DNA of 32,000 bases, from NCBI GenBank assembly GCA_963704705.1, contig OY969931.1, positions 660,001-692,000 on the forward strand, in the 5' to 3' direction. Under the pieces are notes generated by a model. That model had not been told where the DNA came from, did not search any database, and saw nothing but the letters and a program-made list of their open reading frames with translations. Source of the DNA: an uncultured bacterium (GTDB lineage: Bacteria > Patescibacteriota > Gracilibacteria > UBA1369 > PNNO01). Shown here one piece after another: positions 17,598 to 29,829 of this stretch. A program made the position numbers and the translations under genes. Each line of letters opens with the position of its first letter. The first letter of the stretch is position 1.

Positions 17598-17815
17598 CTA
17601 GCACACTTCGTCGTACTTTCTCAACCTACTCAATCAGTCGCATTCGCTCCTTCTTCGTAGCTTGATCTAGCACACTTCGTCGTACTTTCTCAACCTACTC
17701 AATCAGTCGCATTCGCTCCCTCTTCGTAGCTTGATCTAGCACACTTCGTCGTACTTTCTCAACCTACTCAATCAGTCGCATTCGCTCCTTCTTCGTAGCT
17801 TGATCTAGCACACTT
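17598..17815. repeat. Non-coding tandem repeat, 69-bp unit x 3 full copies plus an 11-nt partial copy
   Basis: Units run 17598-17666, 17667-17735 and 17736-17804. The partial copy at 17805-17815 is the stop codon and last codons of the surface-protein gene. There is a single substitution (T to C in unit 2, GCTCCCTC). All six frames contain stops in every unit. Visibly more GC-rich than its surroundings. Confidence 0.95.
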
Positions 17816-19934
17816 TCTTTTTAAATTTAAAGTAAAGCTGAGAAATTAATAGAGAAATCAGAACAAACCAAATCATTTCCGGACCGGTTGATTCTAATTT
17901 ATTAGTTGTAATTGTTACTGTTTTCACTTGTGATTCGTCAGGCGGAGGTGTGAATACCTGCACTTGCGAGTAAGGAATTCCGCTTACTATGCTACTTTTA
18001 TTTGCACTCTCCTGATCAGCATCATCTACAGCAGCTACTGCAAAGAAATACTCCTGACCATTTACAAGATTAGGTATATACCAAGTTGTTTTATTATCAA
18101 ACGTATTAACTGCTCTATCTAAATTGCTTGGAGTAAGTCCAAAATATATTTTGTAATGATCAATACCTGAATCATCTGATGCCGGCTGCCATTTTAAAGT
18201 TACCTTAGCATCTGTTGAAACAACTTGTACTCCGAATACATCTGATGGTATTTGGTCTTCTTGTGCTACGGGTTGTTGTCCATCAATTAATCCATCACCG
18301 CCTTCGGTGATTTCTAATATTGCAACATTTGTGTAAGAACCTTCATTCCCAAGTTCATCAACCAAAATTACATCAAGCGGATATGTTCCTGGATCAGTTG
18401 GAGCCTGAATTGATGCGTTATATTTGGTAGGATCATTAGGATCTTGTTCAAGTTCAGCAATATCAACATTAAATACAACAGCTCCCTGAAATACATCTGG
18501 TTCTGAAGTTACAACAATATCCAAAATATCACCTGTTTTAATACCTGTTGATGGTGTGATTTTTATATTTTTTACTTCAGGTGGCGAAGTATCGATGTCG
18601 ATTTTTACTTCATCTGATGTATATTGAATTGTATCGTCGCTATCTAATGCAACCGCGATTAAAGTATGTGGTCCGTCTAAAAGCTCATCTGTTTGGAAAC
18701 TAAAAGTTCTGTCACCTTGTACTTCAGTTGAACCTAAAGTTACATCATTATCAAATAATTGAATCGTAAGATCAGTACTTGGTGCTGTTCCGGTTATTGT
18801 AAATTCTCTTTGACCGTAAGTACCAGCCGTAGGAGAGTCAATAACCAATTCAAAATCATTTCCGGTTGTAGTTTGCGGAGGCTGAGAACCAGTTCCAACA
18901 AAAATTTCTTCAGTTCCTCTAATTGTAAAATCACCCAAATCTGTAGCAACTACTGTATATGTTCCTGCTTGAGCGAAATTTAACGAAGAACCAGCGCCTT
19001 TAAATTCATGTGATCCGCTATCAAAATCAACATCAAACGTATAATCATTAGGTAAACTTGCATAAACACTGTTTGAACCTTCTACTGAAAAATGTACTGA
19101 TCCGGAATAATTAGGAACAATGCCTCCTTCTGAATCATAAGCCGTTAATGTGAATGGAGTATCTGAATTTGGTAAGATTGTTGCTGGAAGATTTTCAAAT
19201 ACAAGATTTGAAACTTCTCCGGCTTGCGCATAAGCGGTTTCAATAGAACCACCTGCGTTTTCCATACCTGTATAAGCTATTTCAACTCTTTTATCCAATA
19301 CTTTATTAGCTGTTGAATCCAAAAACGAATAGATTGAAACACCATCGCTTGTTGAAGATAGTGTGAAAATCATAGATCCGCTTTCATCTGTAAATGCTTT
19401 TTGTGATACTTTGAGAACCTGATCATTTGCTCTGCTTGAAATAACAGCAATTTCATGCCCTTTAATAGGGTTATCGTATTTATCTCTAAGTGTTATGGTA
19501 ACGTAAATTTTATCTGTTCCAGTTGCTTTAGCTACTAATTTCGAAGGATCAATTGTTGAATTTTCAGATGAAATACTGTCAGGAAATACAGTGAAAGTAT
19601 TAAAATTGCCATTTGTTCCGTTATCCAAATGCGCAGCAACTTTATATTCACCAGCTTCCTTTGTATGATAATCGTATAAATTGAATTCAGCAATTCCTTC
19701 ATCATTTGATAAAACTGGGATATTAAGCTCAGTGCCGCTTGGTTTTACAATGGTAAATACCACATTTTTATTTGCAAATGTTTTTGAACTATAAATTTGT
19801 GCTTCAAATCCTGCAATTGTATCCATTCCAAACGCTTCCAATTTAAATGGAGTCGATTCAGCTGATGCAATGCCAGCATTTAAAATTATTGTAGTCAGTA
19901 AGCCGAAAGCTAAATATTTGATTCGGTTTTTCAT
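17805..19934 (-). CDS. Large secreted surface protein with Ig-like (Big_1-type) and fibronectin-III domains and a C-terminal LPXTG-like anchor signal
   Basis: Start chosen at the Met giving signal peptide MKNRIKYLAFGLLTTIILNAGIASA. The longer track ORF to 20135 would overlap ilvE. Big_1-like segment YVTITLRDKYDNPIKGHEI. FN3 segment VTLKWQPASDDSGIDHYKIYF...NGQEYFFAVAAVD. The C-terminus reads LESTG, then a hydrophobic helix, then KFKKKVC. Confidence 0.8.
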   Translation of the reverse strand: MKNRIKYLAFGLLTTIILNAGIASAESTPFKLEAFGMDTIAGFEAQIYSSKTFANKNVVFTIVKPSGTELNIPVLSNDEGIAEFNLYDYHTKEAGEYKVAAHLDNGTNGNFNTFTVFPDSISSENSTIDPSKLVAKATGTDKIYVTITLRDKYDNPIKGHEIAVISSRANDQVLKVSQKAFTDESGSMIFTLSSTSDGVSIYSFLDSTANKVLDKRVEIAYTGMENAGGSIETAYAQAGEVSNLVFENLPATILPNSDTPFTLTAYDSEGGIVPNYSGSVHFSVEGSNSVYASLPNDYTFDVDFDSGSHEFKGAGSSLNFAQAGTYTVVATDLGDFTIRGTEEIFVGTGSQPPQTTTGNDFELVIDSPTAGTYGQREFTITGTAPSTDLTIQLFDNDVTLGSTEVQGDRTFSFQTDELLDGPHTLIAVALDSDDTIQYTSDEVKIDIDTSPPEVKNIKITPSTGIKTGDILDIVVTSEPDVFQGAVVFNVDIAELEQDPNDPTKYNASIQAPTDPGTYPLDVILVDELGNEGSYTNVAILEITEGGDGLIDGQQPVAQEDQIPSDVFGVQVVSTDAKVTLKWQPASDDSGIDHYKIYFGLTPSNLDRAVNTFDNKTTWYIPNLVNGQEYFFAVAAVDDADQESANKSSIVSGIPYSQVQVFTPPPDESQVKTVTITTNKLESTGPEMIWFVLISLLISQLYFKFKKKVC

Positions 19935-20069
19935 TTTTTTATTTTGATATCTTAGATATTTCTTAATATTATACCAAAAAAATGATTTTTTTACAATGTT
20001 TAAGGCTATATAATTGATTTTTTTTACATCATAACATAAGATTTTTTTGATATTTATTAATTTTTTATT

Positions 20070-20972
20070 ATGGATAAGGTTGATTTGATATGGATGAATG
20101 GCGAGTTTATACCTTGGGATAAAGCAAAAGTGCATGTTTTATCTCATTCTTTGCATTATGGAAGCGGTGTTTTTGAAGGAATTAGATTTTATGAAACAGC
20201 AAGCGGGAAAACCGCAATATTTAGATTAAAAGAGCACGTTGAAAGGCTTTATTTTTCTGCTAAAACTCTAGAAATGGAAATTCCATATTCAAAAGAAGAA
20301 ATTGAAAATATAATTCTTGAGACAATTAGAAAAAATAATGTTAAAGCAGGCTATATAAGACCTATAATTTTTTATGGATATGGTAAAATGGGTTTAAATC
20401 CTAAAGGTGCTGATTTGGATATTTGTATTGCTGTATGGCCTTGGGGATCATATTTAGGTGAGGATATGGTAAAAGTAAAAACTTCTTCAATTATAAGAAT
20501 CCATCCAAGAAGTTCAGAAACAAAAGCAAAAATAACCGGACATTACTCGAATTCAATTCAGGCCCATCTGGAAGCTGTAAATGCCGGATTTGATGAAGCT
20601 CTGTTACTTGATTTTGAGGGAAATGTTGCAGAAGGGCCGGGTGAAAATATATTTATGGTCAAGAATAACCAATTAATAACTCCTCAGGAAGGCAATATAC
20701 TTATTGGTGTTACGCGTGATTCAATTTTTAAAATTGCAGCTGATAATAATATTGAAGTAAATGAAAAATTGATTACTTTAGATGAATTGAAACAGTCTGA
20801 CGAAGCATTTTTTACTGGAACAGCTGCCGAAGTTACACCTATAAAACAAATTGATGAAACTATTGTTGGCGATGGAAAAACCGGACCGATTACAATTAAG
20901 TTAAAAACCTTATTTGAAGATGCAATTCATGGTAAAATAGACCAGTATTCAGAATGGTTAACTTATGTTTAA
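20070..20972 (+). CDS. ilvE: Branched-chain amino acid aminotransferase (fold-type IV PLP enzyme)
   Basis: 300 aa, collinear with E. coli IlvE: IWMNGEFIPWDKAKVHVLSHSLHYGSGVFEGIRFY, YIRPIIFYG, EGPGENIF, FFTGTAAEVTPI. Confidence 0.88.
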   Translation: MDKVDLIWMNGEFIPWDKAKVHVLSHSLHYGSGVFEGIRFYETASGKTAIFRLKEHVERLYFSAKTLEMEIPYSKEEIENIILETIRKNNVKAGYIRPIIFYGYGKMGLNPKGADLDICIAVWPWGSYLGEDMVKVKTSSIIRIHPRSSETKAKITGHYSNSIQAHLEAVNAGFDEALLLDFEGNVAEGPGENIFMVKNNQLITPQEGNILIGVTRDSIFKIAADNNIEVNEKLITLDELKQSDEAFFTGTAAEVTPIKQIDETIVGDGKTGPITIKLKTLFEDAIHGKIDQYSEWLTYV

Positions 20973-22537
20973 TGTATAAAAAAATTCTTCCGTTATTTAT
21001 CTTGATTGTATTTATTGCTTTGCCTTTTACTGCGTTTGCGCAACAAGCTGAAGCAACTGAGAGTCCAAACTATATTGGAGATGCTGTTTTTGAAGCTATA
21101 ATTACTGCTAGCAGCAGTGTTCAGCAAAATAAAAATATCATTTTCGATGCAACAAAAAGCACACATCCTGATCCAAATGCAAAAATTACCTATAGTTGGG
21201 ATTTTGGTGATGGTAACAAAAAAGAAGGACCGGAAGTAGTGCATAATTATACTGAATTGGGTCCTAAAACTGTCACACTTACTGCAAATGACGGGACTGA
21301 ATCTGTATCTACCACAAAAGAAATTTTTGTACATAAAAAAATTATTATATTAATTACTGATAAAGCTGATTTAAAAGAACGTCTCGATGGATTTACAAAT
21401 TATGCGAGAGATCGTGACAATGAGATTTTATTATACGAAAGTTATGATTCAGCTACAGAATTTATTTCAGAAGAAGTACTTGAAAGAAAATTAAGCGAAA
21501 ATATTGACAACTTAAGAAAAATCGATGAAATAATAGTATGGACTGACGGAGACTCTGGTTTAAATGCGTTATCCCGTGTAAAGCAAAATCAGGCTGCCCT
21601 TGATCCGCCGCTTACATTTGATAAAAAAACTATTTTAGTTCTTAAAGATGCGGATGAAAATCTGGGCCAGCTTCAAAGGCATTACGAATTGTTAAAGCCT
21701 GAAAATATTATTATTGCCAAAGAAGCTGCTTTTTACGCATTAATCGACAGTGACAATTCAACTGATTTTATTAATAAATTAAAAAATGACGGTTACGAAT
21801 ATAATTTGATTAATGTTGAAACAGGAACACTTCAGATTTGGAACTTTATGTCATATTTTGTTAATTACCTGATCGACAGCGGAATTCCTGCAAATACTGT
21901 TATTTTGATTTTAATGTTACCTGTAATTGCGACAATAGTCGCGTTTATGAAACAAATAGTGGGATTAACCACATTTGGTGTTTATACTCCTTCAATTATA
22001 ACTTTAACTTTTTGGATTTTAGGTCTTAAATTCGGCATTCTAACTTTAATTGTGATTCTTTTGGTTGGTACAGGCGTACGAATTGCCTTAAGCAGATTCA
22101 GACTATTATATATCCCGAAAATGGCGGTTGTATTATCAACTGTAGCATTAGCCATATTCGCACTTTTGATTATTTCAATTAGATTCAATCTATTTGATGC
22201 TCAATTTTTCTCTTTATCAATATTCCCAATGTTAATTTTGAGTACTTTGACTGAAAAATTTGTAAATGTTCAAACAGGAAAAGGATTTAACCGTGCATTA
22301 ATATTGGTTTTGCAGACATTATTGGTAGCAATAATCGCATACATTGTTATAGGCGGTGAAATTGACTTTTTCTTGTTCAAACTTAAGTTCTCGGCATTGC
22401 AGGGCTTCATCCTTGCTTATCCTGAAGTGATTTTATTATTTATAATTGTAAATATATTCCTTGGAAGATGGACAGGATTAAAATTATTGGAATATGTAAG
22501 ATTCAGAGAGGTGCTGCGTCACGTTGAAGAAGAATAA
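20972..22537 (+). CDS. Secreted PKD-domain plus alpha/beta domain fused to a C-terminal 7TM module (7TM_transglut-like)
   Basis: Start placed at the Met giving signal peptide MYKKILPLFILIVFIALPFTAFA (TAATG overlap with ilvE; the track ORF starts at 20954). PKD motif ITYSWDFGDGNKKEGPEVVHNYTELGPKTVTLTANDG. About 7 TM helices from roughly residue 300, ending GRWTGLKLLEYVRFREV. This is typical of the 7TM family that partners RimK-like ATP-grasp enzymes. Confidence 0.75.
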   Translation: MYKKILPLFILIVFIALPFTAFAQQAEATESPNYIGDAVFEAIITASSSVQQNKNIIFDATKSTHPDPNAKITYSWDFGDGNKKEGPEVVHNYTELGPKTVTLTANDGTESVSTTKEIFVHKKIIILITDKADLKERLDGFTNYARDRDNEILLYESYDSATEFISEEVLERKLSENIDNLRKIDEIIVWTDGDSGLNALSRVKQNQAALDPPLTFDKKTILVLKDADENLGQLQRHYELLKPENIIIAKEAAFYALIDSDNSTDFINKLKNDGYEYNLINVETGTLQIWNFMSYFVNYLIDSGIPANTVILILMLPVIATIVAFMKQIVGLTTFGVYTPSIITLTFWILGLKFGILTLIVILLVGTGVRIALSRFRLLYIPKMAVVLSTVALAIFALLIISIRFNLFDAQFFSLSIFPMLILSTLTEKFVNVQTGKGFNRALILVLQTLLVAIIAYIVIGGEIDFFLFKLKFSALQGFILAYPEVILLFIIVNIFLGRWTGLKLLEYVRFREVLRHVEEE

Positions 22538-22548
22538 CTTTATAGCCA

Positions 22549-24945
22549 ATGTTCTTATTAAATGACAAAGGGATTTTAGGATTAAATGCAAGAAATTTGT
22601 TGTACATAAGGCCGTATAACCAAAAGAAAACAATAAAACTTGCCGACGATAAGATTAAAACTAAAAAGTTTCTATCTGCCCGGGGTATTCCTGTTCCAAA
22701 ATTATATGCTTCAATAAGAACAAAACAGGAATTGGAAAAATTTGATTTTCATTCTTTACCAAATACTTTTATTTTAAAACCTAATCATGGTTTTGGAGGA
22801 GAGGGGATTATTCCTATTACAAGCAAACGCGGTGATCATTTTGTAAAATCTTCCGGTAAAAAAATAACAAAAGCTGAATTAATAGATCAAATCTCCGATA
22901 TATTGGATGGCCGTTATTCGATTTCAAATGTTGGTGATACAGCTTTTTTCGAACAGCTAATTATCTCGAATGAATCACTTGGTAATTATTCTTATAGAGG
23001 ATTGCCTGATATTCGCGTAGTTGTTCATAATTTAATTCCGGTTATGGCTATGTTAAGACTTCCAACTAAAGAGTCCGGAGGTAAAGCCAATCTGCATTTG
23101 GGTGCTGTGGGTGTTGGAATTGATATTGCAAAAGGTGAATGTACATATATTGCCTATAAAAACAAAATTATAGACGAAGTACCTGGTGTTGGACCGATTA
23201 AAGGTTTAAAAATTCCTTATTGGGAAGATATTCTGATGGTTGCGTCAAAATGTCAGCTTATTACAAATCTTGGTTATATGGCTGCTGATATTGCAATTGA
23301 TAAAACAAGCGGTCCTGTTTTGCTTGAAATCAATGCAAGAGCAGGACTAGGGGTGCAAATTGCAAATCTTGCACCGCTTAAAAAAAGACTTCAAAGAATT
23401 GAAGGAGTGAAAGTAACAACTCCTGTAAAAGGTGTTCGCATAGCAAAAGATATGTTCGGAAATGTAGTGGAGAAAGAAGTGCAGCATATTTCAGGTAAAA
23501 ATATTATTGGAATTGAAGAAGTTGTTGAAATTAATTTGAAGGATGGGGTAAGAAGAGTTAATGCAAAAATGGATTCGGGTGTTGAAAGGAGCATAATCAA
23601 TGAAAAATTCGCAATTGATAATGATTTATTAAAAGAAGAATATGAATATGATGACGAAAAATCTACTGTTAAATTAAAGCTTTCTGTTGCTGATGAGAGA
23701 ATTCAGACAGTTGCAGATATTGAGAAAATTACAGAAGGAGATTACACGATTATTATTGGCAGACGTGATTTGTCTAATTTCTTTATCGATCCTTCTAAAA
23801 AGATTCAAAAGGCCGAATTGCCAACTGAAATTTCTAAAAAAGAAAAACCAAAAAAAGAAATATCATTAACAAGTAGTGTGAATTTTGCTGAAATAGATCA
23901 AAAATTAATTAAAATTGATGAAAGGTTAAAACTTTTATATCATCTAAGGCCATTAAACCTTGAAGAACAAAAACAAGAATTTTTCAAGAATTTTAAGAAA
24001 AATCCTGAATTTGAATATGCTGAACTTAAATTTGATACGTATTCTTTACGCAAAGAACTTGAACAAATAATAACTGATGATTCATCTCTTGGAATTTTAT
24101 TTGAAAAAAAGAAGAAAGAAATTGCTAAAAAAATTAATTTATTGGATTTCAGAGGTTATTCTCAGGAATTTACAGAAGCATCCATTGAACTTTATGGCAT
24201 TCCATCACCTGAGCTTGTACAGGAAGCCACTGATTTACTTCTAAAATCAGAAGGTGAGTTTTCTCAGCCAAATGGAACTATAACAGCGGAAGAAGCAAAG
24301 AAAACAATGGACAATGTATTCAAAGATTACGGTTTAACAAATTGGGAAGTAAAAATTAAAGAAAGTATGGTTTCTGATGCAATTGCAGGTAAAAACAACA
24401 GATTGTTCTTAAGAAAAGGTGCTACTTTTACTGAAAGCAGAATTGATAATTTAATAATTCATGAAATTGAAACACATATATTAACCGCTGAAAACGGCAA
24501 ATCGCAGCCTTACGAATTATTTAACAGAGGTTTGGCAAATTATCTTGAGACGCAGGAAGGTTTGGCAATTTATAATATTTTAAATAAAAAGCACGAAGAA
24601 GCTAAAAATTTATATCTTTCATTATCCCTTGTGGTTGCTGTTGATATGGCGTTACGACATTCATTTGTACAGATTTTTGAAAAAATGCTTGGATTTAAAA
24701 TTCCTCCTGAAAGAGCATTTAGAACCGCTGTTAAAGTAAAACGCGGATTAGAAAACACTGAAGAAGCTGGTGGCTTTACAAAAGATTTCTTATATTATAA
24801 AGGATATAAACAAATCAAAGAGTTTGTTTCTACAGGTGGGGCAATAAAAGACTTATACAGAGGTAAATTCAATGCCAACGATATTGAATATGTACTTCAG
24901 GTACCTAATATAAAAGTGTCCAAATATCTTCCAAAATGGCTTTAA
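22549..24945 (+). CDS. Tripartite fusion: RimK-related ATP-grasp (alpha-L-glutamate ligase-like) + RimB/retropepsin-like domain + DUF1704/MATCAP-type QEGLA-motif metallocarboxypeptidase
   Basis: ATP-grasp, aa 1-~285: ILGLNARNLLYI, ADDKIKTKKFL, ILKPNHGFGGEGI, LLEINARAGLG. Retropepsin-like, aa ~318-417: NAKMDSGVERS (DSG at 23572-23580) and IIIGRRDLSNFFIDPSK. Metallopeptidase, aa ~445-798: HEIETH (24460-24477) and TQEGLA (QEGLA at 24553-24567). Confidence 0.8.
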   Translation: MFLLNDKGILGLNARNLLYIRPYNQKKTIKLADDKIKTKKFLSARGIPVPKLYASIRTKQELEKFDFHSLPNTFILKPNHGFGGEGIIPITSKRGDHFVKSSGKKITKAELIDQISDILDGRYSISNVGDTAFFEQLIISNESLGNYSYRGLPDIRVVVHNLIPVMAMLRLPTKESGGKANLHLGAVGVGIDIAKGECTYIAYKNKIIDEVPGVGPIKGLKIPYWEDILMVASKCQLITNLGYMAADIAIDKTSGPVLLEINARAGLGVQIANLAPLKKRLQRIEGVKVTTPVKGVRIAKDMFGNVVEKEVQHISGKNIIGIEEVVEINLKDGVRRVNAKMDSGVERSIINEKFAIDNDLLKEEYEYDDEKSTVKLKLSVADERIQTVADIEKITEGDYTIIIGRRDLSNFFIDPSKKIQKAELPTEISKKEKPKKEISLTSSVNFAEIDQKLIKIDERLKLLYHLRPLNLEEQKQEFFKNFKKNPEFEYAELKFDTYSLRKELEQIITDDSSLGILFEKKKKEIAKKINLLDFRGYSQEFTEASIELYGIPSPELVQEATDLLLKSEGEFSQPNGTITAEEAKKTMDNVFKDYGLTNWEVKIKESMVSDAIAGKNNRLFLRKGATFTESRIDNLIIHEIETHILTAENGKSQPYELFNRGLANYLETQEGLAIYNILNKKHEEAKNLYLSLSLVVAVDMALRHSFVQIFEKMLGFKIPPERAFRTAVKVKRGLENTEEAGGFTKDFLYYKGYKQIKEFVSTGGAIKDLYRGKFNANDIEYVLQVPNIKVSKYLPKWL

Positions 24946-25964
24946 AGAATTAACATAACATCTCCAAAACTATAGAATCTATATTTGTTTTCGATTGCTT
25001 TTTCATAAGCTTCAAACACAAAATCTTTTCCTGCAAATGCACTTATTAACATTAAAAGTGTACTTTGCGGCAAATGGAAATTGGTAAGCATTACATCAAC
25101 AGCTTTAAATTTATATCCTGGATAAATAAAAATATCAGTTTCATTGCATTCTTCATGAAATTTACCATTTTTTATATTTGATTCAAGCGTTCTTACCGAA
25201 GTAGTGCCTACTGCAAGTATTTTTTTGTTTAATTTTTTTGATTCATTAAGAAATTCAGCAGTACTTTTTGTTATGCTATACCATTCTGAGTGCATTTTAT
25301 GATCTTTAATATTTTCAGTTTTGACAGGTAAAAATGTTCCTCTGCCAACATGTAAAGTAGTAAATGTTTTTTTAATTCCTTTTGATTCAAGCTTGTTGAA
25401 AATATCATTGGTAAAGTGCAATCCAGCTGTAGGGGCTGCAATACTTCCTGAATCTTTAGAATAAATTGTCTGATAGTCATCAAAACTGGCCTTAGAGTTT
25501 TTTATGTACGGAGGGAATGGGGGATAGCCATTATCTTCAATCCATTTATCGAGCGAAGTAAGATTAAGGAATTCTATTTTCCTCGTTCCGTCATCAAAAA
25601 TTTCAATTATTTTTGCTTCAATTGTATTTATTTTTCCAATTACCTTAAAAATTATGTCTTTTTTGAATTTTTTACCAGGTTTTACCATTGCTTTCCAGGT
25701 GTTTTCAGAATATTTTTTTAATAACAATAATTCACCTTTGCTTCCATCAATTTCAACATACAGACGAGCTGCAATTACTTTTGAATTATTTAAAACAATT
25801 ACATAATTATCATTTAAAATATAGGGAAGTTCATTAAAAACCCTGTGTTCAATTGTCTTTTTGCTTCTATTCAGAACCATTAATTTTGAAGTATCCCTCG
25901 GATAAACAGGCTTACTTGCAATTAACTCCTTTGGAAGTATGTAATCGAAATCTTTAGTTAACAT
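24942..25964 (-). CDS. queA: S-adenosylmethionine:tRNA ribosyltransferase-isomerase
   Basis: 340 aa. FDYILPKELIASKPVYPRDTSKLMVL N-terminus, AAPTAGLHFT, HVGRGTF, AVGTTSVRTLES, and C-terminal YRFYSFGD. Confidence 0.93.
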   Translation of the reverse strand: MLTKDFDYILPKELIASKPVYPRDTSKLMVLNRSKKTIEHRVFNELPYILNDNYVIVLNNSKVIAARLYVEIDGSKGELLLLKKYSENTWKAMVKPGKKFKKDIIFKVIGKINTIEAKIIEIFDDGTRKIEFLNLTSLDKWIEDNGYPPFPPYIKNSKASFDDYQTIYSKDSGSIAAPTAGLHFTNDIFNKLESKGIKKTFTTLHVGRGTFLPVKTENIKDHKMHSEWYSITKSTAEFLNESKKLNKKILAVGTTSVRTLESNIKNGKFHEECNETDIFIYPGYKFKAVDVMLTNFHLPQSTLLMLISAFAGKDFVFEAYEKAIENKYRFYSFGDVMLIL

Positions 25965-27090
25965 TAGTTGTTGGGGCTACACTTTCAGTTTGTTTTACTG
26001 TTCCGGTGTATTTTAACGCCATAAGGGTAATATCATCAAGTTGCTCTGCTTCACCTACGAATTGTGAGAAATCAGTTGCTGCGTGATAAGTAACTCCTTC
26101 AGGACCATATTGTGAAGCGTATTTGCTAATTAATTCTTTTAGGCGATCCAAACCAAACATTTCACCTTGTGTGTTTTGGGCTTCGGTTATGCCATCTGTA
26201 TATAAAACAATCTGATCTCCTATTTCTAATGGCAATTCAAGTTCTTTTACTATTTTACTGTTGTCCGGAGTCATACCAAGTGCAACACCACCGCATTTTA
26301 TACTATCTATTTGGCCTGTTTTAGCACGGTAAACTAGTATATATTCATGACCTGACCCGACATAAGTCATTTTTTGCGTTTTATGATCCCATTTAAGCAT
26401 TACCATGCTCATGAACATTGAAGATTTAATACGCGGTTTTAATTGTTTATTTGTATGAACTACAATATCGTATGTATTTTCGTACATTTCAGCATACGTA
26501 TGAAGTAAGGTATTAACCATCATCATAACAAGAGCAGCCGGTGCTCCATGCCCGGTCACATCCCCAATATAAAAATATGTTGAATCTTTTCCATTAATAT
26601 AATCAAAACTATCTCCTCCAACTTCAACTGCTGGTCGCGTTTTAGTAACAACTTCAAGACCCGGAACAATTGGACTCTGTTTTGGGAATATTGTTTGCTG
26701 AATTTCAGCAGCAACATTAAGTTCAGATGACATTCTCTTTTCTTCTTTTAATTTTTTTGAAATAATTTCAAGATTTTCAGTGGTTTCATTGAAAAATTGG
26801 GCGATTATACCTAGTTCATCTATTCTGTTTGTTTCTATTCTTTTATAACTTTTACCTGTTAATATTAATTTCATTTGTTTTGTAATTTTCTTTAAAGGGC
26901 TGTTTATCAATTTATAAATAAGTAAACTTACTAATAAAAATACAACTGCAAGTCCAATTAAACTGTAAATTAAAGGAAAATTAAGTGGTAAACCCCAATA
27001 ATAATATGCACCGGCACCTATAATCAAACATAATACAAAGAATATAAGTGCAAATCTTCTAGATAAATTTTTTCGGAACCAGACAAACAT
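25954..27090 (-). CDS. Membrane-bound HAMP-domain PP2C (SpoIIE/RsbU-type) serine phosphatase
   Basis: Two TM helices with almost no external loop, then a HAMP-like linker (NSPLKKITKQMKLILTG...IDELGIIAQFFNETTENL). PP2C metal-binding motifs are intact: VGGDSFDY, IGDVTGHGAPAAL, LYTDGITEA, DDITLMAL. Confidence 0.85.
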   Translation of the reverse strand: MFVWFRKNLSRRFALIFFVLCLIIGAGAYYYWGLPLNFPLIYSLIGLAVVFLLVSLLIYKLINSPLKKITKQMKLILTGKSYKRIETNRIDELGIIAQFFNETTENLEIISKKLKEEKRMSSELNVAAEIQQTIFPKQSPIVPGLEVVTKTRPAVEVGGDSFDYINGKDSTYFYIGDVTGHGAPAALVMMMVNTLLHTYAEMYENTYDIVVHTNKQLKPRIKSSMFMSMVMLKWDHKTQKMTYVGSGHEYILVYRAKTGQIDSIKCGGVALGMTPDNSKIVKELELPLEIGDQIVLYTDGITEAQNTQGEMFGLDRLKELISKYASQYGPEGVTYHAATDFSQFVGEAEQLDDITLMALKYTGTVKQTESVAPTTNVN

Positions 27091-27092
27091 AT

Positions 27093-27446
27093 TTATATTG
27101 AATTAGCAGCCTCTTCTTCAGAATTAAGACAATTGATCAGCTGGTTTAATCCAACCAGATTAAAAATGTCCATAATTTGTGCAGAAGCATTTATAATAAA
27201 AATCTTTTTGTTTTGTGCGGTAAAACGATTATATACATCAGTAATAAATCCTATACCTTCACTATTAATAAATTTTAATTCAGTTAAATCAAGAATAAGA
27301 TTTGGCAACGTAAACGCCGCTAAAAATTGTTCCATTGATTCTCTGAAATTCGCAACTGAATCACGGTCAATTTCTCCGATTACTTTTATAACCTGATAAT
27401 TTTTTTCAGCATTAGGTTCGTTTGGGGTTAGACTAATTTGCGCCAT
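27093..27446 (-). CDS. STAS-domain anti-sigma-factor antagonist (SpoIIAA/RsbV-like)
   Basis: 117 aa from the Met at 27446; the longer track ORF would overlap the upstream gene. LDLTELKFINSEGIGFI carries the conserved phosphorylatable Ser (codon 27261-27263). Its stop lies 2 nt from the phosphatase start. Confidence 0.8.
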   Translation of the reverse strand: MAQISLTPNEPNAEKNYQVIKVIGEIDRDSVANFRESMEQFLAAFTLPNLILDLTELKFINSEGIGFITDVYNRFTAQNKKIFIINASAQIMDIFNLVGLNQLINCLNSEEEAANSI

Positions 27447-29829
27447 TATAATTTGGATTAAGATATAATATATCATCAATATTTTGGACTTCTTCGTGCT
27501 CATTTACAAGCTCATATGCATTTCGAAGCTTAATAAGCTCAGATCTGTCAAGTTTATCTAAGTTTTCCGCATCCATATCAACAAGAATATCATTTACATA
27601 TGCTGAAACGCAAATATGTAAGTATCTAAATAGATTTTTCTTAACTGAATCTGGCAGAAGTTCTATTTCATGAGTTATTTTTTCTCTTTTTCTTTCATCT
27701 GAATGAATGAGTGAATCACAAATTACATCTATCCCGACTGTGGAATTCATTTTGCATAGAGCAATCGAAGCAGTAAGACTTTCTTCATCATCTTTCGAAT
27801 AAATATAATCTTTAAGTCTGTTTTTTTCCTGTACAGCTTCAATTTCTCCAACTACATAAAACCCTTTAATACGTTCTAATCTATCATTACTAAATAACAT
27901 TTTTTTCAATTCCTGATATACTTTAATTTTACTTTTAGGATATTTCCATAATGCAATTATTGCGTTTCCTTTGATTTCCGGATTTTCTGAATCAAGATAT
28001 GGGCTTAAATAATGTATTAAATTGATATCATCAAAATGCGCACAAGCAGCAATACAATTTGTTTTAATATTTATATCATCAGATTCCAATAATTGAAGTA
28101 TGAAATCAACTATTTGTTCAGACTGTAATCTGGCAAGAATTTTTATTATTAAAGCTTTGATGTCGTTGTCTTCTTCTATTTCAAATTGCTCTTTTAAAAG
28201 CGCATTGATTCGGTGAAGTGAAAAAAGCCTTTTGGATGATTTCTTTTTGATAACATCAAACTGATTTAAGGCATTTAATGCGGCAATTCTTACTTTTCTG
28301 TTTTTATCATTAATATAATCTAAAATTTCAAGAATTGATTCATGTTCTTTCATATGACCTAAAGTTTCAAGTATTTTCACTTTTACTTTTGGATCAAGAT
28401 GGTTTTCTTTTAATGTTTTTGCAAGTATTTGAGCTGAATTTTTATGTCCTTTTTGCCCTAGCACTTCAATAGCATTTAACTGAAGTATTAAATTTTTTGT
28501 ATGAAGCAGATTTTTAATTGATAAATGACTATATTTATTTTCATTTTTTAGAAGCACTACTAACATCCCAACAGCTATTAAAATCATAAATCCTGTTATA
28601 ATAGTGTTTAAGGAGTTAAATGCATAAGTATATTGAAGTATTAATAAAAATGTCATTCCAATAATTGTTCCGATAGGCTGACTAAATCCTTCAATAATTT
28701 CTCTTGCGTCTTCTCTTGCGTCAGGATTAATTGCATAAAAAGATGTATGATATGCACTTTTTTGAATTATACTTGTCATTTCAAAATTTACTTTTGCAAG
28801 TACTGCAGAAGGAAATCCAAATCTTAATAACATTGCACCCAAACTAAATAATGTAACAACAGGATGAAGCAATAATGATCCAACTACACCTAATGAAGTA
28901 ATAATTCTACTGGCAACCAGTATCTGCATTAATAATGCAAATGAGTAAAAGAATATATTAAGCGTACTTAATCCATGTGTTAATTCTTCTGCCGGGTTAT
29001 GAATACCCGAAGAAATATTATTGTAAACAGCTTTCGTGAATTGAAATTCAAGTAAATGCATAAATATCCATTGCAGTATCATAACAATAAACATGATTTT
29101 TAAAAACGGCATTAACTTAAAGTTTTCTATTAATTTTTTTATTTTTGTAAATTCATTTACATGATTTCCATCTGCTTTTTGTTTTTTTCTAATTAAAGGC
29201 ATTCGTCTTAATATCTTTCTATGGAATAAAATTAATGGTGCAGTTAGTGCTAAACAAATCACTGCAATATTTATCAAATTTGCAACAGGTATAAATGGTG
29301 TTAGAAAAGCCATCAATAGAGCTCCAACTATACCTCCTACAGTTTCAGCTGATTCAATTACCGGAAAAGTTCTTTCGCTTTCTAAAGGCGTGAAAAGATC
29401 TTCAATAAAAGCGGAATTTAATATATACAACTGCGATAAAAATATCGCTAATACTGGTATGCTTATAAATAAAAATAAATAATTACTGAAATTATTTACA
29501 AATAAAGCAATTAATAAAAGAACTGCTCCAATCAACGAAGTATATAGAATCAACTTATCTTTTGGTATTTTATGCAGAATATTTGAGTAAAAATACGCTC
29601 CTGCTATTCTCGAAACAGCATAAATCAAAAAGAAATAAGGTAAATTAAAAATGCCAAAATTAGTTACAAAAAGGGCAATTAGAGAAATCCAGGTAATAAT
29701 ATGAGCTGTCTTATATAAAAATTGTAACATCCACGATAAATTTATACGCGGCCACTCTCCTTCAGTGACATTTATAATTTTATTCAGTATGTGTATTGCA
29801 ATTTTTGTTTTTTCTTTTGTTTCTCCCAA
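27433..29829 (-). CDS. Polytopic MFS/TLC-like transporter fused to a C-terminal HEAT-repeat domain
   Basis: About 12 predicted TM helices over the first ~440 aa, with a central basic loop (HRKILRRMPLIRKKQKADG). These are followed by ~350 aa of HEAT/PBS-lyase-like repeats (NAIEVLGQKGHKNSAQILAKTL, KVRIAALNALNQF, NPEIKGNAIIALWKY). Substrate unknown. Confidence 0.7.
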   Translation of the reverse strand: MGETKEKTKIAIHILNKIINVTEGEWPRINLSWMLQFLYKTAHIITWISLIALFVTNFGIFNLPYFFLIYAVSRIAGAYFYSNILHKIPKDKLILYTSLIGAVLLLIALFVNNFSNYLFLFISIPVLAIFLSQLYILNSAFIEDLFTPLESERTFPVIESAETVGGIVGALLMAFLTPFIPVANLINIAVICLALTAPLILFHRKILRRMPLIRKKQKADGNHVNEFTKIKKLIENFKLMPFLKIMFIVMILQWIFMHLLEFQFTKAVYNNISSGIHNPAEELTHGLSTLNIFFYSFALLMQILVASRIITSLGVVGSLLLHPVVTLFSLGAMLLRFGFPSAVLAKVNFEMTSIIQKSAYHTSFYAINPDAREDAREIIEGFSQPIGTIIGMTFLLILQYTYAFNSLNTIITGFMILIAVGMLVVLLKNENKYSHLSIKNLLHTKNLILQLNAIEVLGQKGHKNSAQILAKTLKENHLDPKVKVKILETLGHMKEHESILEILDYINDKNRKVRIAALNALNQFDVIKKKSSKRLFSLHRINALLKEQFEIEEDNDIKALIIKILARLQSEQIVDFILQLLESDDINIKTNCIAACAHFDDINLIHYLSPYLDSENPEIKGNAIIALWKYPKSKIKVYQELKKMLFSNDRLERIKGFYVVGEIEAVQEKNRLKDYIYSKDDEESLTASIALCKMNSTVGIDVICDSLIHSDERKREKITHEIELLPDSVKKNLFRYLHICVSAYVNDILVDMDAENLDKLDRSELIKLRNAYELVNEHEEVQNIDDILYLNPNYNGAN

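What the first reader, a model, noticed from the sequence alone, without database searches (positions are those of the whole stretch)
22549..24945. Three-domain fusion detail: ligase, DSG retropepsin-like module and HExxH/QEGLA metallopeptidase all appear catalytically intact
Seen:
- The ATP-grasp part retains the glycine-rich loop (KPNHGFGGEGI) and the Mg/ATP-binding E-x-N (LLEINAR).
- The middle ~100 aa (23500-23799) have AKMDSGVERS (Asp-Ser-Gly at 23572-23580) and IIIGRRDLSNFFIDPS. These match the AKxDTGAxxS ... LLGRxxLxxFxVDP pattern of RimB / so-called ATP-dependent zinc protease (retropepsin-fold) proteins.
- A Lys-rich linker (KKEKPKKE) follows.
- The C-terminal ~350 aa contain HEIETH (24460-24477) and, 26 residues later, TQEGLA (QEGLA at 24553-24567). 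This is the zinc-binding and signature arrangement of DUF1704/MATCAP carboxypeptidases.

Inference: opposing activities (ATP-dependent addition versus two modes of proteolytic removal) are physically coupled. That implies tight control of tail length or a processing-then-ligation sequence. I am not aware of this exact three-way fusion being characterised.
Basis: partly seen in the sequence, partly recalled or inferred. Interest (0 to 1): 0.8.

Follow-up and report, generated by a model that had tools for sequence, protein, structure and literature searches.

The report
Ligase, decaying protease module, carboxypeptidase fusion
One 798-residue protein of a candidate-phyla-radiation bacterium joins a peptide-tail ligase, a retroviral-protease-like module and a tubulin-detyrosinase-like carboxypeptidase, but in its relatives only the ligase and the carboxypeptidase keep their catalytic residues, so the middle module is probably no longer needed as a protease.

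Summary
One correction: the metal motif is HExxxH, not HExxH.

The three-domain reading is right.
- **N-terminus:** an RloC/TIGR02291-type ATP-grasp.
- **C-terminus:** a DUF1704/MATCAP domain whose HEIETH and QEGLA align with human MATCAP's HEIGTH and EEGLA.
- **Middle (aa 312-420):** this escapes Pfam, but it models confidently as a retropepsin fold. Its best structural matches are RloA2 and RloA, and its profile retrieves bona fide Zn_protease/RimB-like proteins.

"All three catalytically intact" does not hold at family level. Across 82 species-level orthologues, all labelled as candidate-phyla-radiation (CPR) bacteria, the ligase and metallopeptidase residues are invariant. D-[ST]-G survives in only 8 of the 82. 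The columns that lose constraint are the catalytic DTGA and the equivalents of RloA's polyglutamate-binding K46, R114 and R137. The fold-defining G-R-D motif stays conserved.

The window copy keeps DSG. It has V in place of the A of DTGA, and I394 in place of the R137-equivalent Arg.

The gene always follows a PKD-7TM_transglut (RloB-like) membrane protein gene. Unfused versions exist, with ATP-grasp-retropepsin followed by a separate MATCAP gene.

Best reading: a cytoplasmic tail writer/eraser variant of the Rlo/RimK-RimB systems, with a repurposed pseudo-protease module. This is a new variant of a known kind.

The parts
22549..24945 (+). 798-aa three-domain ORF (ATP-grasp, retropepsin-like module, MATCAP-like metallopeptidase). 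It has no signal peptide and no TM segment, so it is cytoplasmic.
22549..23463 (+). ATP-grasp ligase domain (aa 1-305; Pfam ATPgrasp_ST 15-285). It is of the RloC/TIGR02291 type.
   Evidence: Pfam E 2.3e-67. TIGR02291 scores 286.8 bits against a cut-off of 314.2. K77, G84, G86, R156, E260, N262 and R264 are present in every residue-bearing orthologue of 82 (81/81 or 82/82).
22777..22809 (+). Glycine-rich ATP loop KPNHGFGGEGI (aa 77-87).
23320..23340 (+). LLEINAR, with the Mg/ATP-binding E260-x-N262.
23482..23808 (+). Retropepsin-fold module (aa 312-420), homologous to RimB/RloA (Pfam PF05618 family). It is probably a pseudo-protease.
   Evidence: AF2 pLDDT 86, pTM 0.79. Top Foldseek matches are 9g59 RloA2, 9g58 RloA, 2pma and Ddi1 RVP domains. 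The profile retrieves proteins that pass the PF05618 threshold. Loss of constraint on the active site is shown.
23572..23580 (+). D342-S343-G344, in the catalytic D-T/S-G column. It is followed by V345 instead of the family's Ala.
   Evidence: D[ST]G is intact in 8/82 orthologues.
23758..23769 (+). G404-R-R406-D407, the structural G-R-D motif of retropepsins, conserved across the three-domain family.
   Evidence: G404 in 81/82, R406 in 78/82, D407 in 80/82.
23809..23895 (+). Lys-rich, poorly conserved linker (aa 421-449, includes KKEKPKKE).
   Evidence: Mean column conservation 0.28, with length variation.
23896..24942 (+). MATCAP/DUF1704 (QEGLA-type) metallocarboxypeptidase domain (aa 450-798).
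   Evidence: Pfam MATCAP E 1.5e-57. TIGR02421 scores 200 bits against a cut-off of 338.65. phmmer against human MATCAP 7z5g gives E 1.2e-11.
24460..24477 (+). H638-E639-x-x-x-H643 metal/catalytic motif. It aligns with HEIGTH of human MATCAP.
   Evidence: 80/80 orthologues.
24553..24567 (+). QEGLA. E670 aligns with the second Glu of MATCAP's EEG(LA) motif, in which the TMCP paper locates the putative third metal-binding residue.
20954..22537 (+). Operon partner: signal/anchor (aa 1-34), PKD (50-124), alpha/beta ectodomain (125-308) and a 7TM_transglut membrane domain (318-520). Only its 7TM part is RloB-like.
   Evidence: It lies directly upstream in 72 of 82 related loci.

Best explanation
This is the cytoplasmic enzyme of a two-gene, Rlo-like system of Peribacteria/Peregrinibacteria (CPR).

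**Proposed mechanism**
- The N-terminal RloC-type ATP-grasp uses ATP to build or extend a short peptide tail. By analogy with RimK and with the polyGlu specificity of RimB/RloA, this is most likely alpha-linked glutamate, either on a C-terminus or as free oligo-Glu.
- The C-terminal MATCAP-like HExxxH metallocarboxypeptidase trims that tail from the C-terminal end.
- One polypeptide therefore carries both writer and eraser and sets tail length.
- The retropepsin-like module between them descends from an active RimB/RloA-type protease that was already fused to the ligase.
- In this three-domain lineage the module has lost the requirement for aspartic catalysis. It is kept for a non-catalytic job. 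The most plausible jobs are binding or activating the ligase, as RimB does for RimK, or providing an oligomerisation or substrate-holding scaffold.
- The upstream PKD-alpha/beta-7TM protein links the enzyme to the membrane, either as a sensor or as a conduit or acceptor for the product.

**Shown here**
- Domain identities.
- Which catalytic residues are conserved and which are not.
- Cytoplasmic location.
- Conserved operon pairing.
- Existence of unfused precursor arrangements.

**Inferred**
- The amino acid ligated and the substrate.
- The direction of control.
- The role of the 7TM partner.
- The non-catalytic role of the middle module.
For: **Domain identities**
- ATPgrasp_ST and MATCAP match strongly in Pfam, and TIGR02291 and TIGR02421 match in NCBIfam.
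- HEIETH and QEGLA align with the catalytic HEIGTH and EEGLA of human MATCAP.
- MATCAP-family enzymes (TMCP1/2) shorten polyglutamate chains (PMC10499314).

**The middle module is a retropepsin fold related to RloA/RimB**
- The AF2 model is confident (pLDDT 86), and the top Foldseek hits are RloA2 and RloA at E about 5e-6.
- The profile of the module finds 269 representatives in the 1.84-billion-protein library. All nine tested hits in which the module is standalone or attached to a 7TM or LysRS domain pass the PF05618 threshold. The tenth tested hit, the ATP-grasp fusion P0134, matched only Asp_protease_2 below threshold.
- One such hit, P0144, aligns with RloA and RloA2 by sequence.

**Selective loss of constraint on the protease site**
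- In 82 orthologues the ligase residues and H638/E639/H643/E670 are present in every copy that covers those columns.
- In the same set D342 is Asp in 34/82, G344 is Gly in 12/82, and D[ST]G is intact in 8/82.
- D[ST]G is intact in 77/78 standalone or 7TM-linked module regions, 35/39 two-domain proteins and 3/34 three-domain proteins.
- Overall column entropy is equal in the two groups (2.22 versus 2.21 bits). The largest gains are at the DTGA columns and at the equivalents of RloA K46, R114 and R137 (mapping).
- G404, R406, D407 and D414 stay conserved.

**Precedent for a non-catalytic role**
- RimB stimulates RimK ATPase activity and polyGlu synthesis by direct interaction (PMC11957791).

**System context**
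- A 7TM_transglut gene lies directly upstream in 72 of 82 loci.
- An unfused arrangement exists: PKD-7TM, then ATP-grasp+retropepsin, then a separate MATCAP gene.
- Other permutations occur: retropepsin+7TM, and retropepsin+7TM+ATP-grasp in one chain.
- Genetics of rloABC link the protease, the 7TM protein and the ligase to one process.
Against: - No biochemistry exists for any member. The substrate and the ligated amino acid are pure analogy.
- The window's own copy retains D-S-G and K340. In its nearest clade (at least 70% identity, n=28) DSG is kept in 23/28. The per-site identities of 0.96, 0.93 and 0.89 are above the domain mean of 0.74. Residual protease activity in this particular lineage cannot be excluded.
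- Some three-domain proteins outside the main clade keep DTGA (P0156, P0226, P0236). Fusion to MATCAP therefore does not by itself abolish the protease.
- In the deepest clade the motif becomes x-P-[D/E]. This could be a new function rather than decay.
- RloC itself has no demonstrated product.
Confidence: 0.55

Rival explanations
1. All three domains are active. The ligase adds a tail, the retropepsin module (as a homodimer) cuts it endoproteolytically, and the MATCAP-like domain trims it exoproteolytically. That gives two removal modes in one protein.
For: - The window copy has D-S-G in the catalytic column, K340 (RloA K46 equivalent) and K371 (conservative for R114).
- DSG is kept in 23/28 of its closest relatives.
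- Two-domain ATP-grasp+retropepsin relatives keep DTG in 35/39.
- A RimB-RimK hybrid is proteolytically active.
Against: - D[ST]G is lost in 74/82 orthologues, and the NJ tree shows many different derived states. The domain and both other active sites are kept throughout.
- The query has V345 where 91% of active-type sequences have Ala.
- The query has I394 where 94% have the Arg equivalent to RloA R137, a residue required for RloA function.
- Close relatives with DSS, DPG, DST or APG exist.
Confidence: 0.25
2. The architecture is read correctly, but the chemistry is not polyglutamylation. The ATP-grasp (Pfam name "sugar-transfer associated") builds or modifies a different peptide or an envelope-linked molecule. 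That product is passed to or through the 7TM partner to the cell surface, and the peptidase domains act in maturation.
For: - The operon link to a 7TM protein with extracellular PKD and alpha/beta domains is strictly conserved.
- Related loci carry up to three extra ATP-grasp genes and a second MATCAP gene, which suggests a hetero-peptide.
- RloC has no known product.
- The polyGlu-binding residues of RloA are not conserved in this lineage.
Against: - The best NCBIfam matches are the alpha-L-glutamate-ligase-like families.
- RimB and RloA relatives cleave polyGlu.
- MATCAP relatives act on acidic C-terminal tails and on polyE.
- One related locus has a glutamate dehydrogenase gene next to the ligase.
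Confidence: 0.3
3. The middle module has no function at all. It is an evolutionary remnant that survives only as a spacer between two enzymes.
For: It is the fastest-evolving part, with mean identity to the query of 35% against 63% for the ligase. The catalytic motif is eroded.
Against: - It is retained at full length in all 82 orthologues.
- G404, R406, D407, D414, E324 and T387 are at 94-99% conservation, and some are more conserved than in active relatives.
- Mean column entropy equals that of the active family.
- It gives a confident folded model.
- A true spacer already exists next to it: the poorly conserved Lys-rich linker.
Confidence: 0.08

Closest known systems
RloABC system of Pseudomonas (Lormand et al. 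2025, mBio, PMC12239564)
   Same: - It uses the same three kinds of part: an RloC-type ATP-grasp (TIGR02291-like), a RimB/RloA-type retropepsin module, and a 7TM_transglut membrane protein encoded next to the ligase.
- Foldseek places the middle module closest to the RloA2 and RloA crystal structures.
   Different: - Here the retropepsin module is fused inside a cytoplasmic protein, not secreted with a signal peptide.
- Its catalytic and polyGlu-binding residues are not conserved.
- A MATCAP/QEGLA metallopeptidase is added.
- The membrane partner has PKD plus a Rossmann-like ectodomain instead of an inactive transglutaminase.
- Scores are far below the NCBIfam RloA and RloB cut-offs.
RimK-RimB and the RimBK hybrid (Little et al. 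2025, JBC, PMC11957791)
   Same: - A cytoplasmic ATP-grasp glutamate ligase is paired with, and sometimes fused to, a retropepsin-like protease that opposes it.
- RimB also activates RimK by binding, which is a precedent for a non-catalytic role.
   Different: - The ligase here is of the RloC/ATPgrasp_ST type, not RimK.
- The domain order is reversed, with the protease C-terminal to the ligase.
- There is a third, metallopeptidase domain.
- The protease motif is eroded in most orthologues, whereas RimBK is active.
MATCAP/TMCP1-2 (KIAA0895L/KIAA0895), eukaryotic tubulin detyrosinases and deglutamylases, with TTL/TTLL ATP-grasp ligases as opposing writers
   Same: - Both carry the Pfam MATCAP domain.
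- HExxxH and the EG(L)A Glu align with the human enzyme.
- The logic is the same: an ATP-grasp writer opposed by a MATCAP-type C-terminal eraser acting on acidic tails.
   Different: - This protein is bacterial.
- Writer and eraser are in one chain.
- There is no microtubule-binding region.
- The substrate is unknown.
- The ligase is not of the TTL clade.
TIGR02291 (alpha-L-glutamate ligase-like) and TIGR02421 (QEGLA motif protein) families of Proteobacteria
   Same: Both halves match these models over nearly their full length. JGI annotates the orthologues with both names.
   Different: - Both scores are below the equivalog cut-offs.
- In Proteobacteria these are separate proteins.
- In the plasmid and chromid records examined, QEGLA proteins stood alone or were fused to an FGase domain.
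- The statement that the two families are usually neighbours rests on my memory of the TIGRFAMs text and was not tested here.

Membership tests
ATP-grasp, RloC/TIGR02291-type (Pfam ATPgrasp_ST PF14397) | Pfam model matched above the gathering score | tested here: met
   227.6 bits against 31.4, aa 15-285.
ATP-grasp, RloC/TIGR02291-type (Pfam ATPgrasp_ST PF14397) | NCBIfam TIGR02291 equivalog cut-off | tested here: not met
   286.8 bits against a cut-off of 314.2, over a near full-length match (model positions 7-314 of 317). It is a family relative, not an equivalog.
ATP-grasp, RloC/TIGR02291-type (Pfam ATPgrasp_ST PF14397) | ATP/Mg-binding residues (Lys and Gly-rich loop, E-x-N) present and conserved | tested here: met
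   K77, G84, G86, R156, E260, N262 and R264 are present in every residue-bearing orthologue of 82 (81/81 or 82/82).
ATP-grasp, RloC/TIGR02291-type (Pfam ATPgrasp_ST PF14397) | Amino-acid (glutamate) ligase activity | not testable with these tools
   Needs an enzyme assay. No RloC-type member has a demonstrated product.
Clan AA retropepsin-like, RimB/RloA family (Pfam PF05618 Zn_protease/RimB-like) | Retropepsin fold | tested here: met
   AF2 pLDDT 86, pTM 0.79. Foldseek top hits are 9g59, 9g58, 2pma, Ddi1 RVP domains and HIV protease.
Clan AA retropepsin-like, RimB/RloA family (Pfam PF05618 Zn_protease/RimB-like) | Direct match to the family model at threshold | tested here: not met
   There is no PF05618 hit. 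Asp_protease_2 scores 13.7-14.8 bits against 24.3. NCBIfam RloA3 scores 14.7 bits against 210. Homology is shown only transitively by profile search.
Clan AA retropepsin-like, RimB/RloA family (Pfam PF05618 Zn_protease/RimB-like) | Catalytic D-T/S-G in the window copy, in the catalytic column | tested here: met
   D342-S-G aligns with the DTG of PF05618 members and of RloA2.
Clan AA retropepsin-like, RimB/RloA family (Pfam PF05618 Zn_protease/RimB-like) | Catalytic motif under purifying selection in orthologues | tested here: not met
   Intact in 8/82 orthologues and 3/34 three-domain representatives, against 77/78 standalone or 7TM-linked module regions. These columns show the largest entropy gain in the domain.
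Clan AA retropepsin-like, RimB/RloA family (Pfam PF05618 Zn_protease/RimB-like) | PolyGlu-coordinating basic residues (RloA K46, R114, R137) | tested here: inconclusive
   The query has K340 (kept), K371 (Arg to Lys) and I394 (lost). The mapping comes from the P0144/RloA2 alignment and from residue spacing, not from a direct structural superposition.
Clan AA retropepsin-like, RimB/RloA family (Pfam PF05618 Zn_protease/RimB-like) | Homodimer forming a two-Asp active site | not testable with these tools
   No multimer prediction or model coordinates were available.
MATCAP/DUF1704 (PF08014; TIGR02421 QEGLA) | Pfam model above the gathering score | tested here: met
   195.7 bits against 27, aa 477-796.
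MATCAP/DUF1704 (PF08014; TIGR02421 QEGLA) | HExxxH plus downstream Glu in the catalytic columns | tested here: met
   HEIETH aligns with HEIGTH and TQEGLA with TEEGLA of human MATCAP 7z5g. The 7z6s entry carries HQIGTH at this motif. The residues are invariant in 80/80 orthologues.
MATCAP/DUF1704 (PF08014; TIGR02421 QEGLA) | NCBIfam TIGR02421 equivalog cut-off | tested here: not met
   200.1 bits against 338.65.
Rlo system (rloABC) | Secreted RloA protease with a signal peptide | tested here: not met
   The module is internal to a protein with no hydrophobic segment.
Rlo system (rloABC) | RloB: inactive transglutaminase ectodomain fused to 7TM | tested here: not met
   The 7TM_transglut part is present (95.7 bits). 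The ectodomain is PKD plus a Rossmann-like alpha/beta domain. There is no PF14400 hit in the query or in 120 homologues, and no transglutaminase fold match.
Rlo system (rloABC) | Ligase gene adjacent to the 7TM gene | tested here: met
   There is an 11-nt gap in the window. The 7TM gene is directly upstream in 72 of 82 related loci.

The most novel reading that the evidence does not exclude
The three-domain protein is a self-contained length-setting machine.
- The ex-protease module no longer cuts. Instead it grips the growing acidic tail or the ligase itself, acting as a ruler or allosteric switch between the ATP-grasp writer and the MATCAP-type eraser.
- The 7TM partner gates this in response to envelope or osmotic state, or exports the product to the surface of these episymbiotic CPR cells.
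- This would make it the first example of a retropepsin pseudo-enzyme recruited as a regulatory domain.
- It would also show that MATCAP-type "erasers" were paired with ATP-grasp "writers" in bacteria.
Probability: 0.15. Interest if true: 0.75.

Novelty: new variant of a known kind. Interest (0 to 1): 0.5.

Why it matters
- **A clue to the Rlo product.** The Rlo system was described only in 2025, and what RloB and RloC make is unknown. Here the same parts are fused in every permutation: ligase+protease, ligase+protease+MATCAP, protease+7TM, and protease+7TM+ligase. This is Rosetta-stone evidence that the DUF1704/MATCAP (QEGLA) peptidases belong to the same pathway. It points to a C-terminally trimmed, probably acidic, ATP-grasp-made tail as the product.
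- **A natural experiment on the protease activity.** The protease activity has been dispensed with while the fold is kept. This separates a likely non-catalytic role of RimB/RloA-type modules from their catalytic role.
- **A tractable test protein.** The fusion is soluble and single-chain, so ligase and eraser chemistry can be tested directly.
- **Annotation.** The middle domain is currently invisible to Pfam in these roughly 800-aa proteins.

Tried and rejected
- **Direct family scans of the middle segment.** Pfam and NCBIfam gave only sub-threshold hits. A profile search against PDB sequences gave only non-significant Ddi1 matches, E 0.36-1.1. Structure prediction and an exhaustive profile search were therefore needed.
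- **Alignment artefact as the cause of motif loss.** Rejected. The flanks A-x-[IVLM] before the motif and E-R-[ST] after it stay in register in all 82 orthologues.
- **The partner's ectodomain as a divergent inactive transglutaminase.** Rejected. Pfam finds nothing. The AF2 model is a Rossmann-like alpha/beta/alpha domain with no significant PDB match.
- **The overlapping class IV aminotransferase gene as part of the system (a D-Glu supply).** Rejected as a conserved feature. It is present in only 7 of 82 loci.
- **QueA, SpoIIE, STAS and MFS-HEAT neighbours.** These reflect lineage synteny, seen in about a quarter to a third of loci. They are not system components.
- **A second ligase, protease or MATCAP paralogue in the window.** None was found.
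- **Reading Iyer et al. 2009 (PMC3268129).** I recall that it discusses these ATP-grasp neighbourhoods, but it is not held. That recollection is unverified.
- **Inter-domain active-site proximity.** Could not be assessed, because no model coordinates are returned and no prediction jobs remained.


Full report
**1. Observation**

The window has an ATG-initiated ORF at 22549..24945 (+) encoding 798 aa.
- KPNHGFGGEGI, aa 77-87.
- LLEINAR, aa 258-264.
- AKMDSGVERS, aa 339-348, with DSG at nt 23572-23580.
- IIIGRRDLSNFFIDPS, aa 401-416.
- KKEKPKKE, aa 430-437.
- HEIETH, aa 638-643.
- TQEGLA, aa 668-673.

The only slip is in the title: the metal motif is HExxxH, not HExxH. The protein has no hydrophobic segment, so it is cytoplasmic. 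The window is AT-rich, about 30% GC. Its closest relatives carry Patescibacteria, Peregrinibacteria or Peribacteria labels.

**2. The two outer domains**

- Pfam gives ATPgrasp_ST (aa 15-285, E 2e-67) and MATCAP/DUF1704 (aa 477-796, E 1.5e-57).
- NCBIfam gives near full-length matches to TIGR02291 (alpha-L-glutamate ligase-like, 286.8 bits) and TIGR02421 (QEGLA motif protein, 200 bits). Both are below the equivalog cut-offs.
- A phmmer search of PDB sequences with aa 450-798 hits human MATCAP (7z5g, E 1e-11). HEIETH aligns with HEIGTH, and 7z6s carries HQIGTH at the same place. TQEGLA aligns with TEEGLA.
- The TMCP paper describes HExxxH plus an "EEG" third ligand. It also shows that these enzymes shorten polyglutamate chains from the C-terminal end (PMC10499314).

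**3. The middle module**

Direct scans fail:
- Asp_protease_2 scores 13.7-14.8 bits.
- NCBIfam RloA3 scores 14.7 bits.
- None of 120 close homologues carries a precomputed aspartic-protease Pfam hit.

I aligned aa 312-420 from 54 diverse homologues (A1). Results from that alignment:
- AlphaFold2 gave a confident model, pLDDT 86 and pTM 0.79.
- Foldseek against the PDB returned RloA2 (9g59), RloA (9g58), Lpg0085/DUF785 (2pma), then Ddi1 retroviral-protease-like domains and HIV protease.
- The A1 profile, run against 1.84 billion representative proteins, found 269 hits at E<=1e-3.
- Nine of ten tested hits pass the gathering threshold of Pfam PF05618 (Zn_protease/RimB-like), for example P0171 at 77 bits and P0144 at 41.7 bits. 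The tenth, the ATP-grasp fusion P0134, matched only Asp_protease_2 below threshold.
- The tested hits P0144 and P0162 match the NCBIfam RloA1-3 and RimB models. P0144 also aligns with the RloA and RloA2 PDB sequences at E 8e-6 to 9e-5.
- In the profile alignment, the window's AKMDSGVERS and IIIGRRDLSNFFIDPS line up with AKIDTGAxR[ST] and IIGRxDLxxFLIDPS of those proteins.

**4. Are all three active sites intact?**

*Close homologues.* In 119 close homologues (57-93% identity), aligned with the query (120 sequences), the glycine loop, E-x-N, HExxxH and the E-G and A of the QEGLA motif are essentially invariant. D-[ST]-G is intact in only 64 of the 120 aligned sequences.

*Species-level orthologues.* A scan of one genome per GTDB species found 520 relatives. 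The 80 best are all matches of 39-82% identity in CPR-labelled genomes, most spanning the full length and a few cut by contig ends. Adding two further loci gives 82 orthologues:

| Residues | Conservation |
|---|---|
| K77, G84, G86, R156, E260, N262, R264 (ligase) | 100% |
| H638, E639, H643, E670, G671, A673 (metallopeptidase) | 80/80 |
| D342 | Asp in 34/82 |
| Position 343 | Pro in 48/82 |
| G344 | Gly in 12/82 |
| D-[ST]-G motif | intact in 8/82 |

*By architecture.* Among the 150 best representatives of the middle-domain profile, classified with local HMMs:

| Architecture | D[ST]G intact |
|---|---|
| Standalone or 7TM-linked module regions | 77/78 |
| ATP-grasp+retropepsin two-domain proteins | 35/39 |
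| Three-domain proteins | 3/34 |

*Not a general decay.* Mean column entropy is the same in active-type sequences (2.22 bits) and three-domain orthologues (2.21 bits). The largest entropy gains fall on the following columns:

| Column | Entropy gain (bits) |
|---|---|
| G344 | +3.19 |
| The Ala after DTG | +2.93 |
| Column of query I394 | +2.34 |
| K340 | +2.23 |
| D342 | +2.21 |
| T/S343 | +1.46 |
| Column of K371 | +1.30 |

Using the P0144/RloA2 alignment and the 23-residue spacing, the columns of K340, K371 and I394 correspond to RloA K46, R114 and R137. These are the conserved polyGlu-coordinating residues. R114A and R137A had the strongest effects on cleavage in vitro, and both mutants failed to complement the rloA1-3 deletion (PMC12239564).

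By contrast, G404, R406, D407, D414, E324 and T387 are 94-99% conserved. The fold and its G-R-D motif are under selection while the protease chemistry is not.

*Tree.* A neighbour-joining tree on the ligase domain puts DTGA-bearing two-domain proteins and a few three-domain proteins basally. It shows many different derived states within the Peribacteria clade.

*The window copy.* It keeps DSG, K340 and a conservative K371. It has V345 and I394. In its nearest clade (at least 70% identity, n=28), DSG is retained in 23/28, somewhat above the domain's average conservation. Residual activity in this lineage therefore cannot be excluded.

**5. Context**

- The gene starts 11 nt after a 527-aa gene at 20954..22537. 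That gene encodes a signal/anchor, a PKD domain, an unassigned region and a 7TM_transglut domain. The 7TM domain also matches the C-terminal half of NCBIfam RloB.
- A homologue of this gene lies directly upstream, on the same strand, in 72 of the 82 loci. Other neighbours (QueA, SpoIIE, STAS, MFS-HEAT, aminotransferase) are conserved in a third or fewer.
- The unassigned ectodomain (aa 125-308) models confidently (pLDDT 87) as a Rossmann-like alpha/beta/alpha domain with no significant PDB match. It is not a transglutaminase. None of 120 homologues has the inactive-transglutaminase Pfam domain.

Related arrangements show the parts are interchangeable:
- PKD-7TM, then ATP-grasp+retropepsin (428 aa, DTG), then a separate overlapping MATCAP gene. 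This is the unfused form of the window's gene.
- 7TM, then ATP-grasp+retropepsin, without MATCAP.
- RimK-like, then MATCAP, then 7TM, then ATP-grasp+retropepsin.
- A three-domain gene with DTGA, followed by three more ATP-grasp genes and a second MATCAP gene.
- Retropepsin+7TM, tandem retropepsin+7TM next to an ATPgrasp_ST gene and a glutamate dehydrogenase gene, and retropepsin+7TM+ATP-grasp in one chain. In these the protease sits behind an N-terminal hydrophobic anchor, so it is outside the cell like RloA.

**6. What is known**

- *Lormand et al. 2025.* They defined rloABC in Pseudomonas. RloA is a secreted retropepsin that cleaves polyGlu, RloB is an inactive-transglutaminase-7TM protein, and RloC is a cytoplasmic ATP-grasp. 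Loss of rloB or rloC suppresses the hypo-osmotic lethality of the triple protease mutant. The product of RloBC is unknown.
- *Little et al. 2025.* They showed that RimB both removes Glu from polyglutamylated RpsF and stimulates RimK ATPase activity and polyGlu synthesis by direct interaction. They also showed that a natural RimB-RimK hybrid is proteolytically active.
- *Photobacterium.* A QEGLA gene and the adjacent ATP-grasp gene rise 27-fold and 38-fold at low salinity, and RimK rises 52-fold. This is circumstantial support for an osmotic link.
- *Literature gap.* No paper in the searchable library mentions a bacterial DUF1704/QEGLA function or this fusion.

**7. Explanation**

The best-supported reading (about 0.55) is a cytoplasmic writer/eraser:
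- An RloC-type ligase builds a tail, probably an alpha-glutamyl one.
- A MATCAP-type carboxypeptidase trims it.
- A retropepsin-derived module is retained for a non-catalytic role, such as ligase activation or binding (as in RimB-RimK), oligomerisation or substrate holding.
- The whole is coupled to a 7TM membrane partner.

The chemistry may not be glutamylation at all (about 0.3, not exclusive of the architectural reading). A functionless remnant is unlikely (about 0.08).

**8. Verdict**

- It is a new variant of a known kind (Rlo/RimK-RimB-like systems plus a MATCAP-type eraser). It is conserved across a CPR lineage and has an interesting pseudo-enzyme twist.
- Interest is moderate, 0.5.

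Noticed in passing
window 20954-22537 (+), especially 21326-21877: The operon partner has a confidently modelled Rossmann-like alpha/beta/alpha ectodomain (aa 125-308) between its PKD and 7TM domains. It has no Pfam match and no significant PDB fold match. It replaces the inactive transglutaminase of RloB.
   Followed up: partly
window 20070-20972 (+): A class IV aminotransferase gene (the branched-chain/D-amino-acid transaminase family) overlaps the start of the 7TM gene by 19 nt. It is upstream of the system in only 7 of 82 related loci, so it is probably not a component.
   Followed up: yes
L085 5001-8695; proteins P0132, P0162, P0240, P0171, P0143: The same parts occur in other permutations in metagenomes:
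- Retropepsin+7TM.
- Tandem retropepsin+7TM, next to an ATPgrasp_ST gene and a glutamate dehydrogenase gene.
- Retropepsin+7TM+ATP-grasp in one chain.
- Tandem (pepsin-like) retropepsin pairs.
- A class I lysyl-tRNA synthetase fused to a retropepsin module.
   Followed up: partly
L089 3474-10678: A three-domain orthologue that keeps DTGA is followed by three further ATP-grasp genes and a second, 575-aa MATCAP gene. This hints at a multi-ligase peptide pathway.
   Followed up: no
orthologues L046-L082 (motif column of window aa 342-344): In the deepest Peribacteria clade the former D-T-G has become x-P-[D/E] (APE, APD, TPD, RPD and others). Pro is at the middle position in 48/82 orthologues. 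This looks like a new local constraint rather than random decay.
   Followed up: no
window 23647-23667 (aa 367-373, YDDEKST): An almost invariant acidic loop sits at the position of the retropepsin flap in the window's subclade (57-93% identity set). It is gapped or variable in deeper orthologues, and it is the only low-confidence part of the AF2 model.
   Followed up: no
L090 5110-7101 (Vibrio sp. HDW18 megaplasmid): A protein annotated as a "QEGLA motif protein" is a 663-aa fusion of an N-formylglutamate-amidohydrolase-like (FGase, PF05013) domain with a MATCAP domain. In Pseudoalteromonas the QEGLA protein stands alone, with no Rlo-type neighbours.
   Followed up: partly
window 25954-29829 (-): A SpoIIE phosphatase, a STAS anti-sigma-antagonist-like protein and an approximately 800-aa membrane protein with HEAT repeats (MFS_1 plus HEAT_2 in the L002 orthologue) form a cluster downstream. 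This cluster and QueA are syntenic in about a quarter to a third of related loci.
   Followed up: partly
window 17805-20135 (-): A 776-aa predicted surface protein lies upstream on the opposite strand. Its orthologue in L001 carries Ig-like (Big_1) and fibronectin-type-III-like Pfam hits. A homologue occurs in 26 of 82 related loci.
   Followed up: no
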